Shown here: in pieces, positions 28,422 to 63,315 of the stretch | How the letters are laid out: every line of letters starts with the position of its first letter | Position numbering within the stretch: the stretch's first letter is position 1 | Assembly (NCBI GenBank): GCA_963768855.1 | Contig: CAVYJM010000006.1 | Span: 640,001 to 704,000 of the forward strand | Origin: an uncultured Thermoplasmata archaeon | Lineage (GTDB): Archaea > Thermoplasmatota > Thermoplasmata > RBG-16-68-12 | DNA: 64,000 nucleotides | Direction: 5' to 3' | Notes under the pieces: model-generated | The model's input: only the letters and a program-made list of their open reading frames with translations | Told to the model about the DNA's origin: nothing | Databases searched by the model: none | Translations under genes and position numbers: made by a program

Positions 28422-30560
28422 ATGTCGGGGTACCAGCAACGCATCCAGGGCATGGACCGGCTCCTCCGAATCCGGCGCATGCGCAAGGCCGTCTACGCAG
28501 CCCTGCTCTTCGTCACGGTCGTCCTCATGTACGCGCGAATGCAGAGCGAGGGCGGCAGCCTCAAGCCCTTCTTCGTCCCCCTGGACGGCGTCGTCGAGAT
28601 CGGCCTGATGATGGGCCTGGTCGGCACGATCCTCGGGTTGTACCTCAAGAACCTAGAGATCCAGCGCGCCCAGACGGACAGCCAGCGGTACCTGCTGTCC
28701 AAGTACAGCATGAGCCGCGCGATGACCACAGCGATCCTCGCGCTCGCGCTCGGGGTCATCCTCCTCATCCCCTTGACCGGCGCAGGCCTGGCGTCCGTCG
28801 TGACGGAGCCCGCCCGGTACGTGAGCATCTCACCTGGGTCGTCCGAGACGGTCCTCTTCGCGAGCCCGGATGCCTTCGGCGTCAGCTACGTGAAGACGGT
28901 CCATGTGCAGGCCGCCTCTGGGTCCATCGGCGTCCTGATCGTCAAGAACAACGGGACGGTGGCGAGCGGCTCCGTGAGCGGCTCGAACTCCCTCGACCTG
29001 TCCATCCAGCCGAACGGATGGTCCACGAACGCGAATTGGTCCCTTGTGTTCCACAACATCGGGGGCTCGACGACCGCCTCGCTGACCTACAGTCTGACTC
29101 GGCCGCACTCATGCCGTCTCTCTTCTCGACGGTCCCCTTCCTTCTCTTCCTCTACGTGGCCGCGAACCTCGGCTGGTGGTTCGGCCTCCGGCCTATCCGG
29201 GACCGGACGAAGGCCGAGGCCCTCTATGCAGGGACCAACAACTCGACCGTGATGGACATGGGCGAGCGCGCGTACGTGGAGTACGCGATGCAGCCCCAGG
29301 CCGAATCCGCGCGCGGCTCTCCCCGCGGCGTTCGAACCGCCGCCCCCGCCCCCCTCGACGCCTCCGCCTCCTCCCGCTCCGGCAGTCTCGGTCCCGATGC
29401 CCGTCGTCAAGCCGGCGGCGGAACCGCGATCGGTTCCGCAGGCCGAGACCGCGGACACCCTCGCCGCGAAGGGGGACACGCTGTTCACCCTGCAGCAATA
29501 CCCCTCCGCGATCGCGGCCTACGATGAATCGCTGCGGATCAACCCGAACTCGGTTCGGGTCCTCCTGTCCAAGGCGACCGCCCTGAGCGCCATGACCGAC
29601 ACGGGCACGGCCCTCGACGTCTACCGTCGGGTCCTCGCCCTCGAGCCGGGGAACGAGCTCGCCCTCCGCGAATCCTCCAAGCTCCTCGCCGTGCAGCGGC
29701 GCTGGCGGGAGTGCCTCGAGAACACCGAGGCGCTGCTGCAGCGACGGCCCAACGATGTCGGAGCGCTCCAGCTGAAAGGCGACGTCCTCACGAACCTCGG
29801 CCGACGCGCCGAGGCGCTCGCGGCCTTCGAGGCCGCGCAGGCCCTGGACCCGCAGGACGCGAATCTGAGGCAGAAGATCGAGGAGGTCCGCGTCGACGTC
29901 CCCGGCCTCCTGAGCCGCGCGCTGATTGCCTCGGCGAGCGGCAATTATCCCCAGGCCCTGAACCTCTTCGACGACATCCTCGAGGTCGAGCCGAGCAACG
30001 TCAATGCGCTCATCGGGAAGGCGGTCGCCTACCGCCGCAGCGGCAAGCCGAACGAGGCGGTGAACTGCCTCGACATGGTCCTGAACTACCAACCGACGAA
30101 CGCCTCCGCGCTGCTGCACCGGGGGCGCCTGCTCGCCGAGAAGGGTGACCTCGACGCGGCCCTCGAGGCCTTCGACAAGCTCGTCACGATCAGTCCGCAG
30201 GACGAGGAGGCCTGGGCAGCCCAGGGCGACGTCTTCGTCAAGATGGGCCGGGACGACGATGCGCTGCGCGCGTTCTCGGAGGCCCTGAAGCTCAACCCGG
30301 GTGACGAGGAGATCCAGCACAAGATCCACGAGCTGGAGACCTCGCGGTCCGTCCACGCGGACATCCTCCAGGACCTGTATCGGATCAAAGGGGTCGGACC
30401 CGCGCGCGCGAAGGCGCTGATCGAGGCGGGGTTCCGGACCGCAGAGGACTACGAGAAGGCGACCGTGGAGCAGCTCCTTGCAGTCAAGGGGATCACGCGG
30501 CGGATCGCGGAGGACCTCGTGAAACACTTCAAGGTGCCCGTCCCCGTCGCGGCGCACTGA
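28422..30560 (+). CDS. Membrane-anchored TPR protein with C-terminal helix-hairpin-helix pair; two compensating frameshifts
   Basis: Adding G at 29096 (YSL|DSAALM) and removing C at 29312 (ESA|AALPAAFEPPPP) joins three ORFs into about 712 aa: 3 TM, beta domain, TM, Pro linker, TPRs, and IKGVGPARA..VKGITRRIA HhH motifs. Confidence 0.75.
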
Positions 30561-46549: not shown

Positions 46550-49500
46550 GTGAGGACCTTGTTTCTGAAAGAAGTCCAGATGGAGAATTTCAAGTCCTTC
46601 GGCCGCAAGATCGCCGTCCCGGTCCTCCAGGGCTACACCACCATCACGGGACCCAATGGGTCCGGGAAGAGCAACATCTCGGACGCCATCCTGTTCGTCC
46701 TCGGCCCGAAGAGCTCGAAGGCGATCCGCGCCGGCAAGCTGACGGACCTGATCTGGAACGGCGGCAAGACGAAGAACCCCGCCGGGTACACCCAGGTCAG
46801 CCTGATCTTTGACAACACGGACCGCGGCATCCCGCTCGAGGAGGATCTGGTCAAGCTCACCCGCTACGTCGGTCTGAGCCCGAGCGTGGACGGCGGCTAC
46901 AACTCCTACTTCTACATCAACGACCGCAAGTCGTCCCTCGCGGAGTTCGACCAGCTCCTCGCCCACGCGCGGATCTCTGCGGAAGGGTACAACATGGTCC
47001 AGCAGGGGGACATCCAGAAGATCGTCTCGATGACCTCCGTGGACCGCCGACGCATCTTGGACAACATCGCCGGCATCACGAAGTTCGATGACGACATCGG
47101 CCAGGCCGAGACGAAGCGCCGGGAGACGGAGGAGAACCTTGAGCGCATCCGGATCATCCTCGAGGAGATCGACAAGCAGCTGCAGCAGCTCGCGGCGGAC
47201 CGCGAGGGCGCGCTGAAGTACAAGGAGCTCAACGAGCGCCTCACGGAAGCCAAGGCCCAGCTCGCGTACAAGAACCGCGAGCTCATCGAGCGCCAGATCC
47301 TCGGCACGAAGGAGCAGATTGCGAAGCATGAGGGCGACCGGGAGAAGCTCCTCGCGGCGAAGGAGGAGCTCCGCAAGAAGCTCGGGGAGGCGCAGGCGCG
47401 CCTGGACGAGCTCGAGCAGAAGATGGCGGAGCGCGGCGGCGACGAGGCGAAGCAGCTCAAGGAGAAGCTCGACGGCCTTCGCGTGGACCGCGCGCGGGCC
47501 TCGGACGGCATCGAGACTTCCAAGGAGACCCTCAAGCAGCTCAAGTTCGATTCTGCGGACTCCGCGAAGGAGCGAGCAAAGGTCCTCAAGGAAATCGACG
47601 CGCTCGAACGCGAGCGAGGGAACGTGGAGAAGCGGCTCGGCGAACTCGAGGGATCCGTGAAGGCCGTCGATGCGGACCTCCACGAGGTCGACGAGAAGGC
47701 GTCCAAGACGGACGCGAAGGTCCTGACGATCCAGAAGGAGATCCTCGCCCTGAACAAGCAGGTCGACGAGATCGAGGAGAAGATCAAGGGCATCGTCCTC
47801 GAGGGCGACCGGACCAAGGAGTCCATGGAGCGGCTCTCCTCAGAGATCGCCCAGCTCGAGGAGACCCGGAAGCAGTACCAGGTCGAGTTCGACGACGCGG
47901 ACTGGCAGATCAAGGAGCTCAAGTCTCATTCCAAGGAGTCGGGCAAAGGACTCCTGAAGCTCCAGCAGGACTTCCACGAGAAGCGCAACGAGGAGGCCCG
48001 CCTGTCCCGCGAGCAGACGGAGCTGCAGCAGGCGATCCTGACCCTCACGCGGCAGTACGCGCAGCTCAAGGCCGAGGCGGATGTGGCCGAGAACATGCGG
48101 CGCGGGTACACCGCGGCCGTGTCCGCGATCCTCGAGGCCCGCGACACCGGCACCCTGAAGGGCGTGCACGGGACGGTCGCCCAGCTCGCCCACGTCGACC
48201 CGAAGTATGAGACCGCGATCGTGACCGCCGCAGGCGCGCGCATGCAGGCGATCATCGTCGATAGCGACAGCGTCGCGGCCGCGTGCATCGACTACCTGAA
48301 GAAGAACAAGATCGGCCGCGCGACGTTCCTCCCGCTCAACAAGATGCTCGTCGGCAAGCCCCGCGGCAAAGCGATCCTCGTGGCGAAGGAGTGCCTCGGG
48401 TTCGCGATCGATCTCTGCCAGTTCGAAGAGAAGTACCGCGACGCGTTCTTCTACGTCTTCGGCGACACCCTCGTCGTCCAGACGCTCGACGAGGCCCGCA
48501 AGTGGATGGGCGGGGTCCGCCTGGTCACGCTCGGCGGCGAGCTGATCGAGGCCAGTGGGGCGATGGTCGGCGGCGAGGCGGAGAAGTCCTCCCTGAAGTT
48601 CGGCCCGCGTTCCGCGGACGAGCTCGAGAAGGTCTCCGAGAAGCTCCGCGACGCCCAGTCCCAGGCGGAGCAGGTCGGCTCTCGCCTCGAGGAACTGCGG
48701 CGCGATATCCTCGACCTCGAGGGCCAGCTCAAGGACTACGGCGGCAAATCGGGCGTCGCCGAGGTCAAGCAGAGCGCGATCGAGGCGAAGCGGAAGGAAT
48801 ACGGCACGAAGCTCGCGGCGAACGAGAAGGACCTGACCGACCGGAAGGCGCGGTTCGCCGAGTCCGAGAAGACCGCGAAGCGGATCGCGGAGGACCTCCA
48901 GAAGTTCACGCACGGTCTGGATTCGCTCAAGGGAAAGCGGGATGAGCGCAAGAAGGCGGTCATCGACGCGACCCCGCAGCAGATCTCCTCCCGGATGAAG
49001 GAGCTCATGGCGAAGCGGACCTCCCTCTCGGAGGAGCTCAGCCAGAACCGGTCCAAGCTCGACGCGATGGCGACGCAGCTCCAGGTCCTCGGAGACCGCA
49101 AGACCGAGATCGAGACCCGCGCCTCGAACCTCGAGGCTCAGCGGAAGGACCACGAGGGCCGGATCAAGACCTTCGAGGAATCGCTCGGCCGGCTCGAGAA
49201 CGAGGTCCGCGCGCTGGAGAAGATGGAGGCCCAGCTCGGGAAGAAGATGAAGGACCTCCAGGACGCGCGGGATGCCGCCTACCGGGAGAAGACGGACCTC
49301 GAGGGTGAGCTCGACAGGGTCACGCACAAGGTCGAGACGAAGGACGATTTCATCCTCAAGATGCAGATGGAGCTCAAGGTCGAGGAAGACCAGCTCTCCG
49401 AGGCGGACCGCGTGATGAAGGAGATGGCGGTCGAGATCAAGGAGGAGAAGCTGCCGTCCCTCGAGACCCTGAAGCAGACGATCTCAGAGTGCGAGACGGG

Positions 49501-50146
49501 GATCGGCGCCCTGGGGAACATCAACCTCCGCGCCCTCGAGGACTACGACGCCCAGCAGGCGCGGCACAAGGAGCTGGACGAGGACCACAAGCGCCTCGAG
49601 AGCCAGCGCCAGGAGCTGATGAACCTCGTGGCCGAGCTGACGGAGAAGAAGAAGGAGGGCCTGGGCAAGGTCTTCGTCGCGATCAACGAGAACTTCAAGA
49701 AGGTCTACAGCGAGATCAGTGAGGGCGGCGAGGCGGAGCTCCTGCTCGAGAACGAGGCGGAGCCCTTCCTCGGCGGCCTCGTCGTCAAGGCGCGTCCGCC
49801 GAACAAGAAGGTGCTGCGGCTCGAGGCGCTCTCGGGCGGCGAGAAGTCCCTCGTCTCCCTCGCGTTCATCTTCGCGATCCAGGAGTTCGACCCGTCGCCC
49901 TTCTACCTGTTCGACGAGGTGGACCAGAACCTGGACGCAGTCAACGCGGAGAAGGTCGCCCGGATGATTCGCAACAACAGCTCCACGGCGCAGTTCCTGC
50001 AGATCTCCCTGCGCAAGGTCACCCTGAAGGAGGCGGACCACATCATCGGCGTGACGATGGCGCCCGGATCCACCTCGGAGATCATCATGCGGGTGAACCT
50101 GGCGGAGATCGAGGACGAGAAGCCCGCCGCGGAGGTGCCCGCATGA
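46550..50146 (+). CDS. smc: Chromosome segregation protein SMC
   Basis: ENFKSF, Walker A GPNGSGKS, coiled coils, hinge GVHG/GRATFLPL, LSGGE and Walker B FDEVD. Confidence 0.98.
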   Translation: MRTLFLKEVQMENFKSFGRKIAVPVLQGYTTITGPNGSGKSNISDAILFVLGPKSSKAIRAGKLTDLIWNGGKTKNPAGYTQVSLIFDNTDRGIPLEEDLVKLTRYVGLSPSVDGGYNSYFYINDRKSSLAEFDQLLAHARISAEGYNMVQQGDIQKIVSMTSVDRRRILDNIAGITKFDDDIGQAETKRRETEENLERIRIILEEIDKQLQQLAADREGALKYKELNERLTEAKAQLAYKNRELIERQILGTKEQIAKHEGDREKLLAAKEELRKKLGEAQARLDELEQKMAERGGDEAKQLKEKLDGLRVDRARASDGIETSKETLKQLKFDSADSAKERAKVLKEIDALERERGNVEKRLGELEGSVKAVDADLHEVDEKASKTDAKVLTIQKEILALNKQVDEIEEKIKGIVLEGDRTKESMERLSSEIAQLEETRKQYQVEFDDADWQIKELKSHSKESGKGLLKLQQDFHEKRNEEARLSREQTELQQAILTLTRQYAQLKAEADVAENMRRGYTAAVSAILEARDTGTLKGVHGTVAQLAHVDPKYETAIVTAAGARMQAIIVDSDSVAAACIDYLKKNKIGRATFLPLNKMLVGKPRGKAILVAKECLGFAIDLCQFEEKYRDAFFYVFGDTLVVQTLDEARKWMGGVRLVTLGGELIEASGAMVGGEAEKSSLKFGPRSADELEKVSEKLRDAQSQAEQVGSRLEELRRDILDLEGQLKDYGGKSGVAEVKQSAIEAKRKEYGTKLAANEKDLTDRKARFAESEKTAKRIAEDLQKFTHGLDSLKGKRDERKKAVIDATPQQISSRMKELMAKRTSLSEELSQNRSKLDAMATQLQVLGDRKTEIETRASNLEAQRKDHEGRIKTFEESLGRLENEVRALEKMEAQLGKKMKDLQDARDAAYREKTDLEGELDRVTHKVETKDDFILKMQMELKVEEDQLSEADRVMKEMAVEIKEEKLPSLETLKQTISECETGIGALGNINLRALEDYDAQQARHKELDEDHKRLESQRQELMNLVAELTEKKKEGLGKVFVAINENFKKVYSEISEGGEAELLLENEAEPFLGGLVVKARPPNKKVLRLEALSGGEKSLVSLAFIFAIQEFDPSPFYLFDEVDQNLDAVNAEKVARMIRNNSSTAQFLQISLRKVTLKEADHIIGVTMAPGSTSEIIMRVNLAEIEDEKPAAEVPA

Positions 50147-51078
50147 GCGAGACATCCCAGGCGATCCTCAACCACCTCCTCTTCCACAAGTCCCTGATCA
50201 GCGAGCAGGAGGGCGGCGAGCGGATCAACCGCTACATGTCCATGCTCGGCGAGATCGACCAGGGGCTGCACGTGGCCGTCCGCGACCCGTTCGAGAAGTC
50301 CGTCGTCGCGGCCTTCGAACTCGTCCTCGAGAAGCAGATGGACCCCTGGGAGATCGACCTGATGCAGTTCACGAAGCTGTTCCTGGACAAGGTCCGGAAG
50401 GACGGAGTCGTGAATTTCGTGACCGCGGGCAAGCTCGTCTTCCTCGCCTGGTCCATCCTGAAGCTGCAGAGCGACAAGGTCCTCCTCGCGGCCCAGCCGC
50501 CCGAGGCCGAGTCGCCCGCGGACGGTTGGGACCTCGACCTGTACCGCGACCCGGAGGATGTGGACTACAACCATCTCATCCTGGACGGCGCGAAGATGCC
50601 CCTGAACGAGGCGATCCGCCGCGAGGGCCGCCGGGCCGTGACCCTCATGGAGCTCATGGACGCCTTCGACGAGGCCCGCCGCGAGGCGGAGATCCAGATG
50701 CAACTCAACGCCCTCCGGGAGCAGGCGATCAAGCGCTTCGCCCCGAACTTCCACCAGAAGGTCCACGGCGAGGACCTCACGGAGGACATCGGCCTGACCT
50801 GGGGCCGCCTGACCCAGTTCAACGGCGACCCGGTCCCGCTCCGGTCGCTGATCGCGGGCAGCGTCTGGGACGAGGTCACCGTGTTCATGGCCCTCCTCTT
50901 CCTCGCCCAGCTCCAGAAGGTGAAGCTCTGGCAGAAGGAGTTCCCGCACGGGGAGATCTTCGTGAAGCGCCTGTCGACCGAAGAGACGATCGCCGCGGAC
51001 GAGCTCCTGGCGATCCCCGCCCTGGCCCACCCGAAGTCGGAGGCCGCCCGGGTGCCTTCGCCGGGGGTGGGCGCGTGA
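50143..51078 (+). CDS. scpA: Kleisin ScpA
   Basis: DPWEIDL N-terminal motif, VTLMEL, and FMALLFLA...LWQKEFPHGEI C-terminal wHTH; ATGA overlap with smc. Confidence 0.93.
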   Translation: MSETSQAILNHLLFHKSLISEQEGGERINRYMSMLGEIDQGLHVAVRDPFEKSVVAAFELVLEKQMDPWEIDLMQFTKLFLDKVRKDGVVNFVTAGKLVFLAWSILKLQSDKVLLAAQPPEAESPADGWDLDLYRDPEDVDYNHLILDGAKMPLNEAIRREGRRAVTLMELMDAFDEARREAEIQMQLNALREQAIKRFAPNFHQKVHGEDLTEDIGLTWGRLTQFNGDPVPLRSLIAGSVWDEVTVFMALLFLAQLQKVKLWQKEFPHGEIFVKRLSTEETIAADELLAIPALAHPKSEAARVPSPGVGA

Positions 51079-51701
51079 GCGACCGCGGGATGGTCGAGGC
51101 GGCCCTGTACTCCGCGGGGCGCGCCCTGACCGTCGACGATCTCATGCGGGTCACCGGGTTCGACGAGGCGACCGTGAAGGAGCATCTCCGTGCCCTCGCC
51201 CGCGAGTACAAGAAGCGGGAGAGCGCCCTCGAGGTTGCCCAGATTGGCACGCGCTGGACGATGCAGATCCGCCAGGAGTACACGGAGCGCGCCCGGACCT
51301 TCGCGCCCCCGGAGATCGACCGCGACCTGCTCAAGACGGCCGCCCTGATCGCCTACCACCAGCCGATCCTGCAGAGCGATCTGTTCGACATGATCGGCGA
51401 GAAGGTGTACGAGCACACGAAGGCGCTCGAGGACCTCAAGCTCATCACCCGCAAACCGAGCGGCCGGTCCCTCGAGCTCACGACCACTCGCTACTTCGCC
51501 GAGTTCTTCGGGCTCAAGACGACGAACCGGGAAGGGATCCGGAAGATCATGGCGGAGCGCGCGGGGATCGTGTACCGCGAGAAGCCCGCCGAACCGGAGG
51601 TCCCGGAGCCGGCCCCGGAGAACCCGGCCGGCCCGGCCCAGGGACCCGAGGCCACCTCGCCGCCGCCCCTCGCCGAATCACCTCCGATAACCACGGGCTA
51701 A
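51075..51701 (+). CDS. scpB: Kite subunit ScpB
   Basis: VEAALYSAG..L, LKTAALIAYHQPI and TTRYFAEFFG motifs; GTGA overlap with scpA. Confidence 0.93.
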   Translation: MSDRGMVEAALYSAGRALTVDDLMRVTGFDEATVKEHLRALAREYKKRESALEVAQIGTRWTMQIRQEYTERARTFAPPEIDRDLLKTAALIAYHQPILQSDLFDMIGEKVYEHTKALEDLKLITRKPSGRSLELTTTRYFAEFFGLKTTNREGIRKIMAERAGIVYREKPAEPEVPEPAPENPAGPAQGPEATSPPPLAESPPITTG

Positions 51702-51788
51702 TTCCTTTATAAGCCGCGGGGCCCTCGCGTCCCTCGGCAGCTCCCGGAGCGCGAGCCGGGGCGCTGACAGGGCAGAGCGGAGCGGACC

Positions 51789-54700
51789 GTGAGCGGGTAC
51801 CTGCGGGACAGCCAGCTGCGGAGGCAGCTGGAGGACAAGGTCAACGAGGCCAAGCGTACGCGCCAGTCCGCCGAGGACGGGCTGAAGCTCGCCCAGGAAG
51901 TCCTCGAGGCCGCGCGCAAGATCGACGCGAACGTCGTCGAGGCGGAGAAAGTCCTCGCCGAAGCGACCGCCGCGATGGGGGCGAAGGACTACAAGCTCGC
52001 CGCGGACAAGGCCGCCGAGGCGACCGAGCGCGGGAAGCGGATCCACCGCGAACATGCGTCCGCGATCATCGAGTCCGGCGCCGGGCTTGCGGCGCTCGCC
52101 AAGGGCGTCGGCGCGGACGTCTCCGAGGTGGAAGGCAGCCTCGCGAAGGCTCGCGACGCTCTCGAGGCCGACAGGCTCGAAGAGGCGGTCGACTTCGCGA
52201 AGAAGTCGTGGAAGCGGAGCGAGAAGGTCCTCTCCGAGCACCTGTCGTCCAGCTTCTCGAAGGTCCAGGCGCTCATCCTCTCGGCGAAGAACCTCGGCCG
52301 GGACATCACGCCCATGGAGGACCTCCTCTCCCGCGCGCGCACGGCCGTGGAGGGCAACAACTTCGCATCCGCGCTCGATTTCACGAAGGAAGGGCTTGAG
52401 ATGATCACGGAGGACCTGACCTCCGCGCTCAACAAGGAGACGCGCGAGGCGGAGGACCTCCTCAAGACGGCCCAGGAGCTCGGGGCCGACGTCACGAAGG
52501 CGACGACGTTCCTCGAGCGGGCGCGCTCCGACGTCGCGAACCTCGAGTTCGAGAAGGCGAACAACGCGGTCCGCCAGAGCCGCGCGGAATCGGAGAAGGC
52601 CCTCCAGCGCAGCCTCGAGGGAAAGCTGACCGACTTCACCAAGTTCATCCAGGAGGCCCGGGCGATCGGCGCGGATCCCGGCCCCGCGGAGGGACACTTC
52701 GCGAAGGCCCAGGAGTCCCTGAAGCAGGGCAACTACAAGGCGGGCGCGCAGTTCGCCAAGCAGGGCTTCCAGGCGCTCCAGGACGCGCAGTTCCAACGGG
52801 TCGTCGGGAGCATCGGCGCGTCGCGCGAGAAGTTCGTCGCGGCCGTCAACCTCGGCATCGACCTCAAGGATCCGCTCAACGACCTGGGCAACGCCCGGGC
52901 CGCGCTCCAGCGGGGTGCCTTCCGCGAGGCTCTCGAGTGGGCTCGCAAGGCCGACGAGGTCGTCGACGCGACGGTCGCCCAGTACCGCGCCGCCCAGGAG
53001 CGGCTCAAGACGCTCCACCGCGCATTCGCGGAGGCCGAGGCCCGCGGGGTCGATACAACGCCTGCCCGCCGGCTCGCGGAGAAGGCCCGCGACGCGTACC
53101 AGCAGCACGATCTGGCCGCTCTGGAGGCCGCGGTCGACGCGGCCCACGAGGAGCTGCGCAAGTCCGAACGCGAGCAGGTCATGCGCACGATCGAGCGGGC
53201 GGAGTTCATCCTCACGGTCGGCGAGCAGAGCGGCGCCGATCTCTCCGAGGCCTCGCGCCTCCTGGAGGACGCGATCGTCGCCACGAAGGCGAACGAGCAC
53301 AAGCGGGCGCTGGACCTGGTCGGACAGGTCGAAGTCAAGGCTGAGGCGACGCTCGAGAAGCACGTCGGCGACCGAACCGCCACCTTGCGAAATGCCCTGC
53401 CCCATCTCGGGGACGCGGGAGCCGAGCTGAAGACGATCATCTCCCGAACCGACGCCGCGATGGCCGCGCACGACTTCGAGGCCGCGTTCAAGGGCCTCGA
53501 GGAGGGCCGCCGCTTCGTCGAGGAGCACACGCGATCCCTGGCGGAGCAGATGATCGGATCGCTCGGCCTCGCCGTCCAGATGGGCGTCGATTTCGGGATC
53601 AGCGTCCAGTCCGAGGAGTCCCTGTACCGGGAGCTCAATGAGTCCCTCGGCGCAGGGAAGGTCGCGGAGATCATGGCGTCGCGGGAACGGGTGCAGACCG
53701 CCCTCGCGAGCGCGTCGGAGAATCTTCTGGCCCAGGTCAAGGCGCGCATCGCCCAGGCCGAGGGCCTCCGGATCGACACGGACGAGATGTCCGACTCCCT
53801 GAAGCGCGCCGAGCTGGGACTCCGCACCGGAAGTTACGCGGAGGGGCTCGAGCTCCTGAAACAGGCGGGCGACCGCGCGAACAAGGCGACGGCCCTGCAC
53901 CGCCAGGCCCATGACGCGCTCTCCGGCGCGGCGGCGTTCATCGCGGAGGCGCGCAAGCACAACGTCGACGTCACGAAGATCGTGGAGGTCCTCGTGGACG
54001 CGAAGAAGGCGTTCGAGCGCCTCGATTACGTCCAGACGATCGAGCTGTCCGCCCGCGCGAAGGCGGACACGGCGAGGCTCACGGTCCTCTATTCCTCGGC
54101 GCAGAAGATCCTCTCGAACAAGGAGAAGATGGAGGTGGGCAGCCGCCTCGGGATCGACGCGCCCCACCTGCGCGAGCTCGCCTCGGAAGCGAAAGAGGCG
54201 ATGAAGGCGAAGGAGTACGACCGGTCGCTCGAGCTCGCGAGCCGTGCGGACGACGAGTTCGCCTCCTTGATCCGGGAGAAGATCGCCGCCCTCCTCACGA
54301 CCTCCCAGTCCATCCTCGGATCCGTCGAGGGGGTGAACCTCGCGACGGTCAACGACGAGGTGATCCGGGCCCGCCAGTCGCTCGAGACGGGCGATCTGCC
54401 CCGGGCCGCGGACCTCGCCCTCCACCTCCGGGAGACGCTCGAACGGCTCAAGAAGCAGGGCGAGGAAGCCGACGTCGCGATCCAACGGGTCCGGGAGTCC
54501 GCCACGGACGCGGAGGCGATGAACCTCGAGGTCCCGAACACCCGCGCGCTCCTCGAGAAGGCGGATCGCGCCTACCGGATGGGGCAGTTCGAGGAGGCGA
54601 TGGACCACGCCGCCCAGGCCGAGGCGGCGGTCTCGCGGGAGCGGGACCAGGGAATCGCCGGCATGATGCAGAGGTTCGAGGAATCGATCGCCCGCGCCCG

Positions 54701-56276
54701 CAAGGAGGGAACGGACACCCGCTCCGCCGAGAAGCTGTTCGAGCGCTCGCGGGAGTTCTTCCGTGCGAAGAAGTACCGCCAGGCCCTCGCAACGGCCCTG
54801 CAGAGTGAGGCCGAGGCGGAGCGAGTAGCGCTCCAGCAGGGAATGGCTTCCCAGGCCGTTGCCACGATCGAGGGCAAGCTCCGCTCCCTGGGTCGGCCCG
54901 CGCCCTCCGTCGAGCGGGTCAGCGAGGAGTCTCGCCGCGCCCTCGCCGGCGGCGACTATGTGAAGGCGCTGGATCTCGCGATCCGCGCCTCGGACGCCAT
55001 GGCAGAGTTCCGCGCGGCCTTCGAGGAGGTCCAGGAGGTCCGGGTCCACGCGTCCGCCCTGCGCCAGACCGCGCGAGAGATCGGTGCCGAGGCGGACAAG
55101 CTGGACCGCTTCATCCAGGAAGGCGACGCGGCGCTCTCGGCCGGCGACATCGAGTCCGCCCGCGCATCGTTCTCGCAGAGCCTCGAATGGGGCATCGGGC
55201 TCGTTCGGGCCCATCTCAAGGAATCCCTCTCCAGGGCGGACGAGCTCGTGGCCGTCTGCCGCAAGCTCGAGATCGACCCGACGCCCGTCCTGAACAAGCT
55301 CTCGGAGGCGCGAACGCAGATCGAGTCGGAGAACTTCGCCGCTGCCCACGCGCGGATCGCCGAGGGCCAGGAGGTCGCGCAGCGCGCCCTCGGTGCCCGG
55401 CTCAACCGGACCCTGGCGGACGCCGCCGAGAATGTGGCCCACGCGAAGAAGCTCGGGTCCGACGCCCGCAACGCGGAGGACCTGCTCCGGCAGGCGAACG
55501 AGAAGGTCTCGCGGGGCGAGTACGAATCGGCCCTCGAGGCCGTGGGGCGTGCGGTCGAGCACGTCGAGAGCGCGAAGCTCGTCGAGAAGCGCTTCGTCGA
55601 TCTCACCTTCAAGGCCGAGACGACCATCCGGAACGGGAAGAAATACGGCATCGACATGCACGCGGCGGAGAGGCGCCTCGCCGAGTCGATGGACCTTCGC
55701 CGGCGGGACATCGCGGACGGCCTGAAGGCCGCCGAGGACGCGTACCGGCTGGCTTGGGACGCGGTCGAGGCGTTCGCCCCGAACCTGAAGGGATCCCTCG
55801 AGGTCGGCCCCGCGAAGCTCAACCAGCCGACGGATGCGACGCTCACCCTGGAGAACGTGGGTAAGGGACTCGCGAAGGACGTCCACGTGAGGATCCTCGG
55901 CGACGCGGAGGCGGAGGGCCTCCCGGAGCTCGCCGCCCTGCGCGCGCACGGCCGCGAGGTCCTGACGTTCAAGCTGAAGATGACCGCCCCGGGCTCCGTG
56001 CCGCTGGCGATCCAGCTCGTCTCCCACCGCGTGTTCGACGACAAGGAGTATGTCCAGGAGACGATCGCCCAGGTCGACGTGGCGGAGACCCTCCAGGAGC
56101 GGCCGAAGAAGCTCCTCGCGGACCTCGAGTCCCGTTGCCCGATCTGCAAGGGCGCCATCAAGAAGGGGTTCAAGGTCCTCCAGTGCGCGTGCGGCCGCGA
56201 CTTCCACGAGCTGTGCGCGTCCCGCGTCGGTCGCTGCCCGGTCTGCTTCCGGCCCCTCGGGAACCCCACGGAGTGA
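51789..56276 (+). CDS. 1495-aa helical-repeat protein with Ig-like domain and C-terminal C4HC3 zinc finger
   Basis: About 21 repeats of about 60 aa (A..xGxD...A...L..A...G(D/N)(Y/F)..A), then beta-rich TLTLENVGKGLAKDV..., then CPIC-x12-CAC-x4-H-x2-C-x6-CPVC. Codon usage matches the core genome. Confidence 0.9.
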   Translation: MSGYLRDSQLRRQLEDKVNEAKRTRQSAEDGLKLAQEVLEAARKIDANVVEAEKVLAEATAAMGAKDYKLAADKAAEATERGKRIHREHASAIIESGAGLAALAKGVGADVSEVEGSLAKARDALEADRLEEAVDFAKKSWKRSEKVLSEHLSSSFSKVQALILSAKNLGRDITPMEDLLSRARTAVEGNNFASALDFTKEGLEMITEDLTSALNKETREAEDLLKTAQELGADVTKATTFLERARSDVANLEFEKANNAVRQSRAESEKALQRSLEGKLTDFTKFIQEARAIGADPGPAEGHFAKAQESLKQGNYKAGAQFAKQGFQALQDAQFQRVVGSIGASREKFVAAVNLGIDLKDPLNDLGNARAALQRGAFREALEWARKADEVVDATVAQYRAAQERLKTLHRAFAEAEARGVDTTPARRLAEKARDAYQQHDLAALEAAVDAAHEELRKSEREQVMRTIERAEFILTVGEQSGADLSEASRLLEDAIVATKANEHKRALDLVGQVEVKAEATLEKHVGDRTATLRNALPHLGDAGAELKTIISRTDAAMAAHDFEAAFKGLEEGRRFVEEHTRSLAEQMIGSLGLAVQMGVDFGISVQSEESLYRELNESLGAGKVAEIMASRERVQTALASASENLLAQVKARIAQAEGLRIDTDEMSDSLKRAELGLRTGSYAEGLELLKQAGDRANKATALHRQAHDALSGAAAFIAEARKHNVDVTKIVEVLVDAKKAFERLDYVQTIELSARAKADTARLTVLYSSAQKILSNKEKMEVGSRLGIDAPHLRELASEAKEAMKAKEYDRSLELASRADDEFASLIREKIAALLTTSQSILGSVEGVNLATVNDEVIRARQSLETGDLPRAADLALHLRETLERLKKQGEEADVAIQRVRESATDAEAMNLEVPNTRALLEKADRAYRMGQFEEAMDHAAQAEAAVSRERDQGIAGMMQRFEESIARARKEGTDTRSAEKLFERSREFFRAKKYRQALATALQSEAEAERVALQQGMASQAVATIEGKLRSLGRPAPSVERVSEESRRALAGGDYVKALDLAIRASDAMAEFRAAFEEVQEVRVHASALRQTAREIGAEADKLDRFIQEGDAALSAGDIESARASFSQSLEWGIGLVRAHLKESLSRADELVAVCRKLEIDPTPVLNKLSEARTQIESENFAAAHARIAEGQEVAQRALGARLNRTLADAAENVAHAKKLGSDARNAEDLLRQANEKVSRGEYESALEAVGRAVEHVESAKLVEKRFVDLTFKAETTIRNGKKYGIDMHAAERRLAESMDLRRRDIADGLKAAEDAYRLAWDAVEAFAPNLKGSLEVGPAKLNQPTDATLTLENVGKGLAKDVHVRILGDAEAEGLPELAALRAHGREVLTFKLKMTAPGSVPLAIQLVSHRVFDDKEYVQETIAQVDVAETLQERPKKLLADLESRCPICKGAIKKGFKVLQCACGRDFHELCASRVGRCPVCFRPLGNPTE

Positions 56277-57800
56277 TCAGTCCAACCGTCCCGCGGCCTT
56301 CTCCGCCGCGGAGACGATCTCCCCGGTCCGCATCCAGTCCAGGATCTGCTCGACATCGGCGGACATCGTGCGGTCGTCCTCGAGGGGTGGGACCCGCGTC
56401 CGGATGAGGGCGTGGGCGGCCCGCGGTCCGCGTCCCGCCTTCAGGGGGCGCAGGAACTCCAGGCCCTGCGCGGCGGTCAGGTACTCCAGCGCGACGACCC
56501 GCTGGGCGTTCTCGAGGGCGGTCCGCGCCTTGAGCGCGGCGGCCATGCCCATCGGCACGTAGTCCTCTTGGTTCGCGGAGGTCGGGATGGAGTCCGCCGA
56601 GGCAGGGTGGGCGAGGACCTTGTTGTCGCTCGCGTACCCGGCCGCCACGTACTGCGCGACCATCATCCCCGTGTTCAGGCCCCCGCGCGTCGTCAGGAAC
56701 GCGGGGAGTTCGCTCAGCCGGCCGTCGACGAGACGGGCCGTGCGCCGCTCGGAGAAACCGGCGAGGACGGCCATCGCGAGCGCGAGATGGTCGAGCGCCA
56801 TCGCGACGGCTTGGCCGTGGAAGTTGCCCCCGCTCAGGCTCTCCACCTCCTCCGGGAAGAGAAGGGGGTTGTCCGTCGCGGAGTTCATCTCGATCCCCAC
56901 GGCCTCCTCCGCGAATCCGATTCCGGCGCGGCACGCGCCGAGGACCTGCGGGATGCACCGCAGCGAATACGGGTCCTGGACGCGGTGGGGACCGCGGTGG
57001 GATGAGATGATCTCGCTGTCCTTCAGGAGCCGGCGCATGTTCGCCGCGACCTCCCGAGCGCCCGGTTGGGGCTTGAGCCGGATGTAGCGGTCGTCGTAGG
57101 GCACGGGGGAGCCGCGCAGGGCCTCAAACGAAAGGGAGGCGGCGAGCTGGGCGTCCTGGAGCAGGCCGAACCCGTCGTGGACGGCGAGCGCCCCTACCGC
57201 GGTCATCACGGACGTGCCGTTGATCAGGGCGAGGCCTTCCTTCGGTTCCAGCTCGATCGGCTCGAGGCCGGCCCGGTCGAGCGCCTGCGCACCGTCGAGG
57301 ATCTTGCCCTCGAGCTCCGCGGCGCCCTCCCCGATGAGCACGAGGCCCAGATGGGCCAGAGGCGCGAGGTCCCCGCTCGCGCCGAGCGATCCGCGGGAGG
57401 GCATGACCGGGTGGACGCCGTGGTTCAGCATCTCGAGGAGCAGGCTGACGACGGCCCGCCGGACGCCCGAGTGCCCCTTCGACAGCGTGTTCGCACGGAG
57501 GAGGAGCGCACCCCGGACGATCTCCGGAGGCAGCGGATCTCCGAGGCCCACCGCGGTGCTCCTCAGGAGGTTGACCTGGAGCCGCTTCGCGTCCGCGTCG
57601 GAGATGACGACGTGTTCGAGGGCCCCGAACCCGGTCTTGATGCCGTACGCCACGGTCCCCGCGGCGAGGATCTTCTCGAGGGTGCGCCGCCCCTCGTCGA
57701 CGCGCCTCGCGGCACCCGGAGCCAGGCGGACCTTCTCCCGGTCCCGCGCGACCCGGACGAGGTCGTCGACCTCGAGGGAATGTCCGTCGATGGAGAGCAT
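56277..57800 (-). CDS. hutH: Histidine ammonia-lyase
   Basis: AYGIKTGFG, MIO-forming GASGDLAPL, QDPYSLRCIPQ, NFHGQ and SANQED motifs. Confidence 0.95.
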   Translation of the reverse strand: MLSIDGHSLEVDDLVRVARDREKVRLAPGAARRVDEGRRTLEKILAAGTVAYGIKTGFGALEHVVISDADAKRLQVNLLRSTAVGLGDPLPPEIVRGALLLRANTLSKGHSGVRRAVVSLLLEMLNHGVHPVMPSRGSLGASGDLAPLAHLGLVLIGEGAAELEGKILDGAQALDRAGLEPIELEPKEGLALINGTSVMTAVGALAVHDGFGLLQDAQLAASLSFEALRGSPVPYDDRYIRLKPQPGAREVAANMRRLLKDSEIISSHRGPHRVQDPYSLRCIPQVLGACRAGIGFAEEAVGIEMNSATDNPLLFPEEVESLSGGNFHGQAVAMALDHLALAMAVLAGFSERRTARLVDGRLSELPAFLTTRGGLNTGMMVAQYVAAGYASDNKVLAHPASADSIPTSANQEDYVPMGMAAALKARTALENAQRVVALEYLTAAQGLEFLRPLKAGRGPRAAHALIRTRVPPLEDDRTMSADVEQILDWMRTGEIVSAAEKAAGRLD

Positions 57801-62464: not shown

Positions 62465-63007
62465 TCACGGACGACTCGCGAGGACGAGGTCGACGAGGCG
62501 GCGGAACGCATCCTCGACGCCGGCGCCCGTCTTCGCGCTCGTGAACGACCAGCTCGACCCGCGCTGCCTGCAGTACGCGTCGATCGTCTCGGCCTCGAGC
62601 TGCCGGCCCGCATCGAGGTCGGCCTTGTTTGCGACCACGTACGTGGGGACGCTCCCGGCGACCGTCCGGATCGAGTGGGACCAGGCGTCCAGCTCCCGGA
62701 GCGTCTCCCGACGAGTCACGTCGGCCACGCCCAGGATGCCTTGCGCGCCGTGATAGTACGCCTCCTTGAGCAGGTCCCGCAGGGTCGGGGCGCCCATGAT
62801 GTCCCACAGGATCAGGCTGACGTCCAGCGGCTCGCCCGTCCGCGGGTCCTTGGCCGCCACGTTCCGCTTCGTGATCTTCGTGCCGAGGGTCGCGGTGTAC
62901 CGGTCCTCGTACTCATCGAGGACATAGCGGCGGATGAGGGACGTCTTCCCGACCATCGCCTCGCCGGCCATGCAGATCTTGAGCTTCACGACCTCCGGCG
63001 CCGTCAT
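62465..63007 (-). CDS. Rab-like small GTPase (Ras superfamily)
   Basis: G1 GEAMVGKT, G2 Y.ATLG, G3 WDIMG, YYHGAQG, G4 NKAD, G5 SAK; 180 aa, no C-terminal Cys. Confidence 0.92.
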   Translation of the reverse strand: MTAPEVVKLKICMAGEAMVGKTSLIRRYVLDEYEDRYTATLGTKITKRNVAAKDPRTGEPLDVSLILWDIMGAPTLRDLLKEAYYHGAQGILGVADVTRRETLRELDAWSHSIRTVAGSVPTYVVANKADLDAGRQLEAETIDAYCRQRGSSWSFTSAKTGAGVEDAFRRLVDLVLASRP

Positions 63008-63315
63008 CCCTCGCTCACCTCGCCCTGCCGCCGCGCGGAGTCCGCCTGCCCGGTCTCGCCCCGCATCCGATGCAGCTTCTCCTTGAAGAACCACGCCCCC
63101 GGATAATCGGGGTCGAGCCGCAGGACTCGCTCGAGGATCACGAGCCCCTCGTCCGCGTGGCCGTCCTGGACGCGGAGGGCGGCGAGCACGAAGAGTGCGT
63201 CGACGTCCTGCGCGTTCTTCGCGAGCGCCTCGCGCACGAGGACGTCGGTCGGGGGCCGCGTCAGCGGAGGGGGTCCATCGTCCGGTCCATCCTTCGCCCC
63301 GCCCATCCCGATCAT
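63004..63315 (-). CDS. Small TPR protein
   Basis: DVDALFVLA...G...EG...LERVLRLDPDYPGAWFFK; GGAGGAG SD; ATGA overlap with the GTPase start. Confidence 0.8.
   Translation of the reverse strand: MIGMGGAKDGPDDGPPPLTRPPTDVLVREALAKNAQDVDALFVLAALRVQDGHADEGLVILERVLRLDPDYPGAWFFKEKLHRMRGETGQADSARRQGEVSEG

What the first reader, a model, noticed from the sequence alone, without database searches (positions are those of the whole stretch)
51789..56276. Giant cytoplasmic helical-repeat rod (about 21 x 60 aa) capped by an Ig-like domain and a RING-like finger, next to the condensin operon
Turn motifs recur about every 60 aa (GVGADV, NLGRDI, ELGADV, AIGADP, NLGIDL, ARGVDT, QSGADL ... KLGSDA, KYGIDM), each followed by A...L..A....G(D/N)(Y/F)..A. 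This suggests a chain of helical bundles, spectrin-like or solenoid. There is no signal peptide or TM. A long helical scaffold ending in a RING is the layout of several eukaryotic tethering/coat subunits (e.g. Vps11/Vps18), which is notable with a Rab-like GTPase 6 kb away; that link is speculation. It follows scpB on the same strand but has its own TTTATAAG box (51708-51715). Candidate roles are cytoskeletal, tethering or chromosome-associated scaffold.
Basis: partly seen in the sequence, partly recalled or inferred. Interest (0 to 1): 0.75.

Follow-up and report, generated by a model that had tools for sequence, protein, structure and literature searches.

The report
Fixed-length archaeal helical rod with RING finger
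This gene encodes a 1495-residue cytoplasmic protein, a core single-copy gene of one order of uncultured Thermoplasmata archaea, predicted to be a roughly 60-nm string of 21 small three-helix bundles ending in an Ig-like domain and a RING-type zinc finger; its function is unknown, and its position after the chromosome-condensing SMC genes looks like inherited gene order, not a proven partnership.

Summary
Window 51789-56276 (+) is a real 1495-aa gene. It has about 21 units of 62 aa (92.7 bits against at most 8.0 in 300 shuffles). A CARDB-type Ig-like domain and a C4HC3 cross-brace zinc finger with eight invariant ligands follow. There is no TM segment.

AlphaFold models show consecutive three-helix bundles joined by shared long helices. 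The best solved analogue is the staphylococcal Ebh rod (Z 10.9).

The family is restricted to Thermoplasmatota and is unnamed. In the window's own order it occurs in 74 of 79 genomes, and in 24 of 24 high-quality ones. The rod shows almost no internal indels down to 44% identity. The extreme N-terminal helix and the finger are the most conserved parts.

smc-scpA-scpB-rod adjacency holds across the order, but as part of a wider conserved block. It is lost in 22 of the 23 more distant loci that appear to lie outside the order. The Rab-like GTPase link is not supported, and the helical part is not a Vps11/18-like solenoid. No E2 was found.

Best reading: a fixed-length scaffold or tether with binding modules at both ends.

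This scan met the same family before on other DNA (e1-4651898) and reached a similar verdict. I found no paper describing it.

The parts
51706..51713 (+). TATA-like box TTTATAAG, 5 nt after the scpB stop and 75 nt before the GTG start
   Evidence: It is the only occurrence in the window. A box of this kind (TTTATAAG in most; variants such as TTTATACG, TTTATATA or TTTAAATA in a few) lies in about the same place in all 22 related loci inspected, while the flanks diverge.
51714..51788 (+). Conserved leader between the TATA box and the start codon. It ends in AGCGGAGC (SD-like), and many relatives have a CCUCGG...CCGAGG hairpin.
   Evidence: RNAalifold found no consensus structure, and single-sequence z-scores are not significant.
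51789..56276 (+). Whole gene, 1495 aa, GTG start, stop included
   Evidence: More than 120 near-full-length homologues at 46-88% identity.
51789..51848 (+). Residues 1-20: the N-terminal helix that belongs to no bundle, with the motif M-x-G-x-YL[KR]xxQLx[KR]QLE. It is the most conserved stretch of the protein (0.78 mean column identity).
   Evidence: It is conserved even in members only 20-25% identical overall.
51849..53348 (+). Residues 21-520: N-arm, eight regular 62-aa three-helix-bundle units
53349..53885 (+). Residues 521-699: central irregular segment of about three degenerate units. It has the lowest conservation (0.46-0.48) and the lowest pLDDT, with a loop at 658-674. It may be a hinge.
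53886..55772 (+). Residues 700-1328: C-arm, ten units
   Evidence: EbhA match Z 10.9 over model residues 956-1200.
55773..56096 (+). Residues 1329-1436: Ig-like beta-sandwich of CARDB type
   Evidence: Weak Pfam CARDB hit in orthologue P0083.
56136..56246 (+). Residues 1450-1486: C4HC3 cross-brace zinc finger (C-x2-C-x12-C-x-C-x4-H-x2-C-x6-C-x2-C); the segment is basic
   Evidence: Ligands invariant. Pfam Prok-RING_1 and zf-RING_2 below cut-off. A family profile matches solved RING-H2 domains at E 5e-8.
46550..51701 (+). Upstream neighbours smc (46550-50146), scpA (50143-51078) and scpB (about 51075-51701). These are context, not shown to be part of the same system.
   Evidence: Pfam hits; synteny.

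Best explanation
The gene encodes a cytoplasmic, non-enzymatic structural scaffold: a rod of fixed length.

Shown or predicted:
- About 21 consecutive three-helix bundles with a 62-aa period. Each long helix is shared by two neighbouring bundles, as in spectrin and in the staphylococcal Ebh/Embp rods.
- A less regular, possibly hinge-like middle segment.

Inferred:
- A length of roughly 60 nm, taken from about 2.9 nm per bundle measured for Embp.
- The rod works through its two ends. One end is an extremely conserved N-terminal lone helix. The other is an Ig-like (CARDB-type) domain plus a basic C4HC3 RING-type finger. Each end docks a different partner, so the protein acts as a spacer or tether of defined length.
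- The finger is most likely a docking module for a protein, or possibly a membrane or nucleic acid. It is unlikely to be a ubiquitin-type E3.

The partners, and therefore the cellular process, are not known.
For: - Repeat reality and register.
- Helix pattern with high confidence: pLDDT 83-89.
- Single units superpose on three-helix bundles: AF1782, Z 10.0, rmsd 2.6 A, 71 aa; PA2901 DUF4398, Z 9.7, rmsd 2.3 A, 87 aa; BibA, Z 8.8 over 173 aa.
- Four units superpose on EbhA 2DGJ: Z 10.9, 221 of 246 residues, rmsd 7.1 A.
- Embp/Ebh repeats are rigid rods. Twelve bundles give a Dmax of 34.8 nm (PMC7587433).
- Length constraint: 37 of 38 orthologues at 44-87% identity have no internal indel over residues 1-1200. 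The only recurrent indels are 1-6 residues in the Ig-finger linker. Full-length relatives down to about 20% identity are mostly 1413-1540 aa, with some at 1580-1640, and align end to end.
- The ends are the most conserved parts: N-terminal 20 residues 0.78, finger 0.77, rod units 0.46-0.75. The N-terminal motif is conserved family-wide.
- It is a core single-copy gene of the order: 74 of 79 genomes, 24 of 24 high-quality genomes, 10 of 10 genera.
- The rod is acidic (net charge -28) and only the finger segment is basic (+6). There is no TM segment.
- No E2 was detected: UQ_con and Prok-E2_A, _B and _E gave no match in the 93.6%-complete genome.
- The finger lacks the long second loop, and no Trp or aromatic residue follows ligand 6 where RING-H2 E3s carry their E2-contacting Trp (sequence; the role of that residue is from my knowledge of the c-Cbl-UbcH7 complex).
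- One subfamily of 1434-1445 aa keeps the rod, the N-terminal motif and the Ig domain but has no finger.
Against: - Nothing here is experimental.
- The overall shape is uncertain. pTM is 0.33 for residues 1-1200, and I had no coordinates, so straightness and length are inferences.
- No partner has been identified, so 'tether' describes form more than function.
- Helical-bundle Z-scores of 9-11 are within the range that common helical arrangements can reach (notes).
- The E2 search covered four of the known E2 families in an incomplete MAG.
Confidence: 0.45

Rival explanations
1. It is an accessory factor of archaeal condensin. The rod docks on Smc-ScpAB or on the chromosome through its basic finger, for example as a spacer or anchor for the Smc complex, whose arms are of similar length.
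For: - The order smc-scpA-scpB-rod on one strand holds in every locus of the order with enough flank: 22 of 22 of the closer relatives and 12 of 12 across the other families at 27-43% rod identity.
- One member outside the order (G067) still has the smc operon next to the rod gene, now convergent.
- The finger segment is basic.
Against: - The conserved block also includes HAL, rnz, HTH-CBS and MAT, so this is general synteny.
- 22 of the 23 distant loci that appear to lie outside the order have no smc within about 8 kb. Each subclade has its own housekeeping neighbours instead, such as PCNA, eIF2-alpha/S27e, or CGI-121 with thiolase.
- The gene has its own conserved TATA box and leader.
- The rod is acidic.
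- There are no kite or winged-helix domains like those of Nse1.
Confidence: 0.12
2. It is a self-assembling cytoskeletal element. The rods join end to end or side by side into filaments or a sub-membrane lattice, making it a spectrin analogue of Thermoplasmatota.
For: - Spectrin/Ebh-like connectivity.
- A lone N-terminal helix that is not part of any bundle. This recalls the partial repeats through which spectrin chains join (the spectrin comparison is from my own knowledge).
- Strict length conservation.
- Many relatives carry a basic C-terminal tail with alternating hydrophobic residues after the finger. This could be a membrane-binding or strand-addition peptide.
Against: - There is no evidence of self-association.
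- The window's own protein lacks the C-terminal tail.
- The C-terminal end of the rod is a complete bundle, so there is no obvious complement for the N-terminal helix.
Confidence: 0.15
3. It is an E3-type ligase scaffold. The RING recruits a charged carrier (a divergent E2, or an E1-like enzyme of the SAMP/UbaA type), and the rod presents substrates.
For: A profile of the family's fingers matches solved RING-H2 E3 domains (Arkadia, RNF165, RNF126, RNF4) at E 5e-8 to 5e-5 over nearly the whole domain. It carries the CP[IV]C and CPxC signatures.
Against: - No E2 family was found.
- The 6-residue second loop and the missing E2-contact aromatic residue.
- One subfamily has lost the finger entirely.
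- The same finger type sits on an archaeosortase-like membrane protein and on a MAM-DUF835 receptor-like protein in this genome. That pattern fits a generic docking module.
Confidence: 0.1
4. It is a coat or tether subunit of the Vps11/Vps18 type, working with the nearby Rab-like GTPase and longin module.
For: Only the order of parts (long helical region, then a RING at the C-terminus) and a Rab-like GTPase 6.2 kb away.
Against: - No beta-propeller, and three-helix bundles in place of an alpha-solenoid.
- The GTPase is on the other strand beyond five unrelated genes.
- It is absent downstream in the 48%-identity clade (L033) and in all 24 distant loci. In one family of the order it lies in a different orientation (L084).
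Confidence: 0.03

Closest known systems
Ebh (S. aureus) and Embp (S. epidermidis) FG-repeat rods; PDB 2DGJ and 6GV5
   Same: - A string of three-helix bundles of about 63 aa each, with a long helix shared by adjacent bundles, giving a rigid rod.
- It is the best structural match of the helical part: Z 10.9, 221 of 246 residues aligned.
- Rod behaviour is documented by SAXS (PMC7587433).
   Different: - No detectable sequence relationship (8% identity) and no FIVAR or GA Pfam hit.
- Ebh and Embp are secreted, cell-wall-anchored bacterial adhesins of about 1 MDa with near-identical, variable-number repeats.
- This protein is cytoplasmic and archaeal. Its 21 old, individually diverged units (13-28% identical to each other) have a fixed number.
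- It carries Ig and RING end modules.
Spectrin-repeat rods (spectrin, dystrophin, nesprin) and bacterial EzrA
   Same: Consecutive three-helix bundles linked by continuous helices; a cytoplasmic linker or spacer role; terminal binding modules.
   Different: The repeat is 62 aa, not about 106. There is no Pfam spectrin hit and no solved spectrin among the structural matches listed. There is no actin-binding or membrane anchor domain.
Prokaryotic RING finger family 1 (Pfam PF14446) and eukaryotic RING-H2 / RING-CH / PHD fingers
   Same: Eight cross-brace ligands in C4HC3 order. The profile matches RING-H2 structures at E 5e-8. Relatives reach 28.1 bits on Prok-RING_1.
   Different: P0001 itself is below every Pfam cut-off (16.7 against 29.1 bits). 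The second loop is very short (6 residues), with 4 residues between ligands 4 and 5. No E2 partner was found.
TPR repeats (Pfam clan CL0020)
   Same: The hairpin of each unit carries a TPR-like signature (L-G-x-D ... A ... G-[DN]-[YF]-x-x-A). The unit profile hits designed consensus TPR proteins at E 1e-9, by summing many weak stretches.
   Different: The period is 62 aa, not 34. A third helix completes a bundle, so there is no stacked solenoid. Each individual stretch is non-significant. Only 2 of 18 units touch TPR_2, at E 0.05.
CARDB / COG1361-type Ig-like domains
   Same: The beta-sandwich fold (Z 10-12; Atlas neighbours are CARDB clusters). The NxGxxxA motif is present.
   Different: These domains are usually extracellular. 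Here the domain sits in a protein with no signal peptide, next to a zinc finger. The Pfam score is below cut-off (18.3 against 22.7 bits in P0083).

Membership tests
RING-type cross-brace zinc finger (Prok-RING_1, PF14446) | Eight Zn ligands in cross-brace order and spacing | tested here: met
   C-x2-C-x12-C-x-C-x4-H-x2-C-x6-C-x2-C. All eight ligands are invariant in 39 orthologues and nearly so in 20 distant fingers.
RING-type cross-brace zinc finger (Prok-RING_1, PF14446) | Score above Pfam's gathering cut-off | tested here: not met
   P0001 scores 16.7 bits against 29.1. The best relative, P0167, scores 28.1 bits. A family profile does reach solved RING-H2 domains at E 5e-8, so homology to RING fingers is likely even though Pfam membership is not formally met.
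RING E3 ubiquitin ligases | E2-binding surface (aromatic residue on the central helix, full-length second loop) and a cognate E2 in the genome | tested here: not met
   The loop between ligands 6 and 7 is 6 residues with no aromatic residue. UQ_con and Prok-E2_A, _B and _E gave no match. Prok-E2_C and _D were not searched, and the genome is 93.6% complete.
RING E3 ubiquitin ligases | Ligase activity | not testable with these tools
   This needs a biochemical assay.
Spectrin repeat (PF00435) | A three-helix bundle repeat of about 106 aa recognised by the family profile | tested here: not met
   The period is 62 aa. There is no Pfam spectrin hit at E <= 1. The connectivity is similar.
Ebh/Embp FIVAR-GA (FG) repeats | Sequence membership (FIVAR and GA profiles) | tested here: not met
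   No such Pfam hit; 8% identity in the structural alignment.
Ebh/Embp FIVAR-GA (FG) repeats | A string of three-helix bundles sharing a long helix | tested here: met
   Z 10.9, 221 of 246 residues, rmsd 7.1 A. This compares a predicted model with a crystal structure.
TPR | 34-aa helix-turn-helix units stacked into a solenoid | tested here: not met
   62-aa period and three-helix bundles. The only similarity is motif-level.
CARDB Ig-like domain (PF07705) | Beta-sandwich fold and a profile score above cut-off | tested here: inconclusive
   The fold matches. The Pfam score is below cut-off in the orthologue P0083 (18.3 against 22.7 bits), and P0001 has no hit at all.
HOPS/CORVET Vps11/Vps18-type coat or tether subunits | N-terminal beta-propeller, then an alpha-solenoid, then a C-terminal RING | tested here: not met
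   The N-terminal 1328 residues are all helical three-helix bundles, with no propeller.
Condensin / Smc5-6 kite subunits (ScpB, Nse1) | Tandem winged-helix domains that bind the kleisin | tested here: not met
   No winged-helix segment in the models or in the Pfam results. Binding to ScpA or Smc cannot be tested here.

The most novel reading that the evidence does not exclude
Thermoplasmatota may possess a lineage-specific 'molecular ruler': a spectrin-like rod whose exact length is under selection. Three length classes are seen, about 700-900, about 1500 and about 3100 aa. Within this window's order, the only lineage tested for it, the length is held almost free of indels. The rod would set a fixed distance of roughly 60 nm in the cell between two structures bound by its conserved N-terminal helix and by its Ig-RING head. 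One such pair could be the membrane or envelope and the nucleoid or Smc complex. That would be a new class of archaeal cytoskeletal element.
Probability: 0.2. Interest if true: 0.8.

Novelty: new variant of a known kind. Interest (0 to 1): 0.55.

Why it matters
Archaeal cell architecture outside the tubulin, actin and ESCRT families is almost unknown. Long rod-shaped linker proteins of the spectrin type are usually regarded as eukaryotic or, in Ebh, as extracellular bacterial inventions.

This is a 163-kDa, single-copy, order-wide core protein. Its length is frozen to the residue, and it has a conserved binding module at each end, one of them a RING-type finger in an organism with no detectable E2.

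If it is a ruler or tether, it gives a handle on how wall-less or S-layer-poor Thermoplasmatota organise their interior. It also bears on what RING fingers did before ubiquitin ligation.

If instead it is a condensin partner, it would be the first lineage-specific accessory of archaeal Smc-ScpAB.

Tried and rejected
- Complex prediction, C-terminal bundle plus Ig plus finger against the N-terminal 90 residues: 'no answer', score 0.00. This is neither for nor against binding.
- Sequencing runs: no RNA holder listed. Expression and co-transcription with scpB could not be examined.
- Foldseek of residues 1-1200 against PDB: nothing at E <= 1.
- Sequence search of P0001 against PDB: only marginal RING hits.
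- NCBIfam: only a sub-threshold SAXB hit.
- Pfam YfdX reaches its cut-off in one distant relative, P0277, but with no significant single stretch. I took it as repeat-like helical similarity.
- An MIT-domain idea, that the units are MIT-like three-helix bundles linked to the Thermoplasmata ESCRT system: no MIT Pfam hit in any unit and no ESCRT gene in any neighbourhood inspected. Dropped.
- A recurrent neighbour across 25 loci was sought by all-against-all clustering. It gave only subclade-specific synteny blocks and no universal partner.
- RNAalifold on the 5' leader gave no consensus structure, and the hairpin z-scores are not significant.
- Burroughs, Iyer and Aravind 2011 (PMC5938088) on prokaryotic RING fingers is not held, so I could not check what it says about family 1.
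- Literature searches for this architecture found nothing.
- The long antisense ORF (51678-56207, minus strand, 1509 aa) is treated as a high-GC artefact, because all the homology and fold evidence is on the plus strand.

Full report
**What is there**

Window 51789-56276 (+) is an open frame of 1495 codons starting with GTG. The window has about 68% G+C, so long spurious ORFs are common, including a 1509-codon antisense ORF. The plus-strand frame is the real one. It has more than 120 near-full-length homologues at 46-88% identity. Its N-terminus is conserved from residue 2 onward. It also folds with high confidence.

Upstream on the same strand lie smc (46550-50146), scpA (50143-51078) and scpB (about 51075-51701). 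Downstream, a histidine/aromatic ammonia-lyase gene (56277-57800, minus strand) abuts it stop to stop.

**The repeat**

G-x-D turns recur every 62 residues. An HMM built from units 2-8 alone detects the later units at E 1e-5 to 2e-10. The part of the protein not used for that HMM scores 92.7 bits, against at most 8.0 bits in 300 composition-preserving shuffles.

Eighteen units align in register with almost no gaps. They are only 13-28% identical to each other. They are therefore old, individually diverged units, not a recently expanded array. I count about 21 units:
- Eight regular units in residues 21-520.
- About three degenerate units in 521-699. This stretch has the lowest conservation and the lowest pLDDT, with a disordered loop at 658-674.
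- Ten units in 700-1328.

**Fold**

I made two AlphaFold2 models from 39-sequence alignments. Residues 1-1200 give pLDDT 83.4, and residues 1130-1495 give pLDDT 88.6. Both show one strict pattern: a helix of about 39 residues, the 5-residue G-x-D loop, a 15-residue helix, a 3-residue turn, then the next 39-residue helix.

Each bundle is therefore made of the second half of one long helix, the short helix, and the first half of the next long helix. Each long helix is shared between two bundles. Structural comparison supports this:
- Single units superpose on small three-helix bundles: AF1782/DUF357 (Z 10.0, rmsd 2.6 A, 71 residues), PA2901/DUF4398 (Z 9.7), LanD (Z 9.3).
- Three units superpose on the BibA helical domain (Z 8.8, 173 residues).

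These Z-values lie in the range that helical repeats can reach without common ancestry, and sequence identity is 8%. I treat Ebh as an analogue, not a relative. Foldseek alone found nothing for the rod.

The hairpin of each unit has a TPR-like sequence signature. This explains the summed hits to designed consensus TPRs. But the period, the third helix and the model all argue against a TPR solenoid.

For Embp, twelve such bundles span 34.8 nm in solution (PMC7587433). By analogy, 21 bundles would span about 60 nm. This is an inference. I had no coordinates, and pTM for the long model is 0.33.

**The two ends**

The first half of the first long helix (residues about 6-24) belongs to no bundle. 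It carries the motif M-x-G-x-Y-L-[KR]-x-x-Q-L-x-[KR]-Q-L-E. The motif is kept even in family members only 20-25% identical overall, and it is the most conserved stretch of the protein.

After the last, complete bundle comes a beta-sandwich at residues about 1333-1432. It matches transglutaminase C-terminal barrels, macroglobulin MG domains and CARDB domains at Z 10-12. CARDB clusters are its nearest Atlas shapes.

A short, indel-tolerant linker leads to the finger. Its ligands are C1450, C1453, C1466, C1468, H1473, C1476, C1483 and C1486, all invariant. P0001 is below every Pfam cut-off. However, a profile of 20 diverse fingers of the family matches solved RING-H2 domains (Arkadia, RNF165, RNF126, RCHY1, RNF4) at E 5e-8 to 5e-5 across the domain. 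PHD fingers score lower. It is a RING-type cross-brace finger in C4HC3 order.

Several points make a canonical E3 role unlikely, though not excluded:
- Only six residues lie between ligands 6 and 7.
- No aromatic residue sits where RING-H2 ligases contact the E2.
- No E2 family was found in the 93.6%-complete genome.
- The finger is lost in one subfamily.
- The same finger type sits on an archaeosortase-like membrane protein and on a MAM-TM-DUF835 protein in this genome.

The rod is acidic (net charge -28) and the finger segment is basic (+6). There is no TM segment, and seven of the protein's eight cysteines are finger ligands.

**Distribution and constraint**

All named relatives are Thermoplasmata/Thermoplasmatota MAGs labelled 'hypothetical protein'. 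One contig is filed under an Actinobacteria bin, probably a binning error.

In the window's own order the gene is found in 74 of 79 genomes, in 24 of 24 high-quality genomes and in 10 of 10 genera. It is single-copy and colinear from residue 2 to about 1490 down to 27% identity. Across a 401-genome sample of the phylum it is patchy: 40 genomes, with several large families lacking it entirely.

An exhaustive profile search found 491 cluster representatives. They fall into length classes of about 1430-1600 aa, about 3000-3200 aa in other classes of the phylum, and about 700-900 aa.

The most striking feature is the indel record. 37 of 38 orthologues at 44-87% identity have no internal indel in residues 1-1200. 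The only recurrent indels lie in the Ig-finger linker. Exact length and register are under strong selection, as expected for a rigid rod that acts as a spacer.

**Neighbourhood**

The order smc-scpA-scpB-rod is universal in the order: 22 of 22 closer loci with enough flank and 12 of 12 loci from the other families. However, HAL, rnz, the HTH-CBS gene and MAT downstream are conserved as well, so this is block synteny. The rod gene evolves faster than its neighbours: 27-43% identity, against 46-60% for Smc and 62-70% for MAT.

Among 24 distant loci, one (L045) has the full arrangement, HAL included, and by that synteny probably belongs to the order. Of the other 23, only G067 has smc within about 8 kb, in convergent orientation, as a single-gene inversion would give. 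The rest sit among other housekeeping genes. No neighbour recurs across subclades.

The gene has its own TATA-like box at 51706-51713, the only TTTATAAG in the window. A box of this kind is conserved in 22 related loci, together with an SD-like AGCGGAGC before the start.

The Rab-like GTPase (62465-63094, minus strand) accompanies the block only inside the order. It is absent from L033 and from all distant loci.

**Interpretation**

The data best fit a non-enzymatic, fixed-length scaffold or tether that works through its two conserved ends (confidence 0.45). Self-assembly into a cytoskeletal lattice (0.15), a condensin accessory role (0.12) and an E3-type scaffold (0.10) remain open. The Vps11/18-Rab reading is essentially excluded (0.03).

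An earlier follow-up of this scan on another genome (e1-4651898) reached the same picture: 21 units of 62 residues, an Ig domain, a RING, and synteny read as local gene order. The present work adds:
- The three-helix-bundle/Ebh-like connectivity.
- The near indel-free length constraint.
- The conserved N-terminal helix.
- Order-wide core status.
- The finger-less, tailed and double-length subfamilies.
- The absence of detectable E2s.
- The related finger and repeat proteins elsewhere in the genome.

I found no published description.

Noticed in passing
window 51714-51788: The roughly 75-nt stretch between the conserved TATA box and the GTG start is a conserved leader. It ends in AGCGGAGC about 10 nt before the start, and many relatives have a CCUCGG...CCGAGG hairpin. 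A leader this long would be unusual for an archaeal mRNA and might regulate translation.
   Followed up: partly
window 56274-56279: The rod gene's stop codon (ending at 56276) directly abuts the stop codon of the convergent ammonia-lyase gene (ORF 56277-57800, minus strand). No intergenic base is left for terminators.
   Followed up: no
G000:C6:634536-636119 (about 4 kb before the window start; L058:4537-6120): A 527-aa multi-pass membrane protein with a borderline, just sub-cut-off Pfam hit to exosortase/archaeosortase (Exosortase_EpsH). It carries the same C4HC3 finger type at its C-terminus. A sorting enzyme fused to a RING-type finger is an odd combination.
   Followed up: partly
G000:C12:94467-96974 (L057:468-2975): An 835-aa protein with a signal/TM segment, a MAM-like domain, a second TM segment, a C4HC3 finger and DUF835. 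It looks like a receptor whose cytoplasmic part starts with the same finger type.
   Followed up: partly
G000:C18:136483-143802 (L056:484-7803): A 2439-aa paralogue: an N-terminal zinc ribbon, about 15 of the same 62-aa units, CARDB and HYDIN-like Ig domains, and a C-terminal DUF5915. Smaller proteins with 1-4 units also exist (C9:40686-41696, C18:19543-20880, C17:137318-138682, C21:7384-8268, C6:735562-737001). There is one weak hit inside the window at 29397-30560.
   Followed up: partly
relatives P0103-P0120, P0184, P0182, P0158, P0135 (C-termini): Many family members add a tail after the finger: a lysine/arginine cluster followed by alternating hydrophobic residues, ending for example in KKRKLAFHVG, RRLSLDI or KRIKLKI. 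It could be a membrane-binding or beta-strand-addition peptide. The window's protein lacks it. A subfamily of 1434-1445 aa (P0200, P0205, P0209 and others) ends at the Ig domain with no finger.
   Followed up: partly
other classes of the phylum: G016:C3, G004:C3, G036:C157, G050:C1 (L061, L062, L077, L078): Double-length versions of about 3100-3200 aa have the same Ig-plus-finger end. The family therefore comes in discrete length classes.
   Followed up: no
orthologues in G412, G477, G427, G410, G478: Several matches in the order contain one or two in-frame TAG codons; others contain a TGA or TAA. These could be assembly errors, or TAG could be read through in some lineages. Not examined.
   Followed up: no
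L031 (VAYX01000188.1): A contig carrying the rod gene and HAL in the usual arrangement is filed under an 'Actinobacteria bacterium' MAG. This is most likely a binning error.
   Followed up: no
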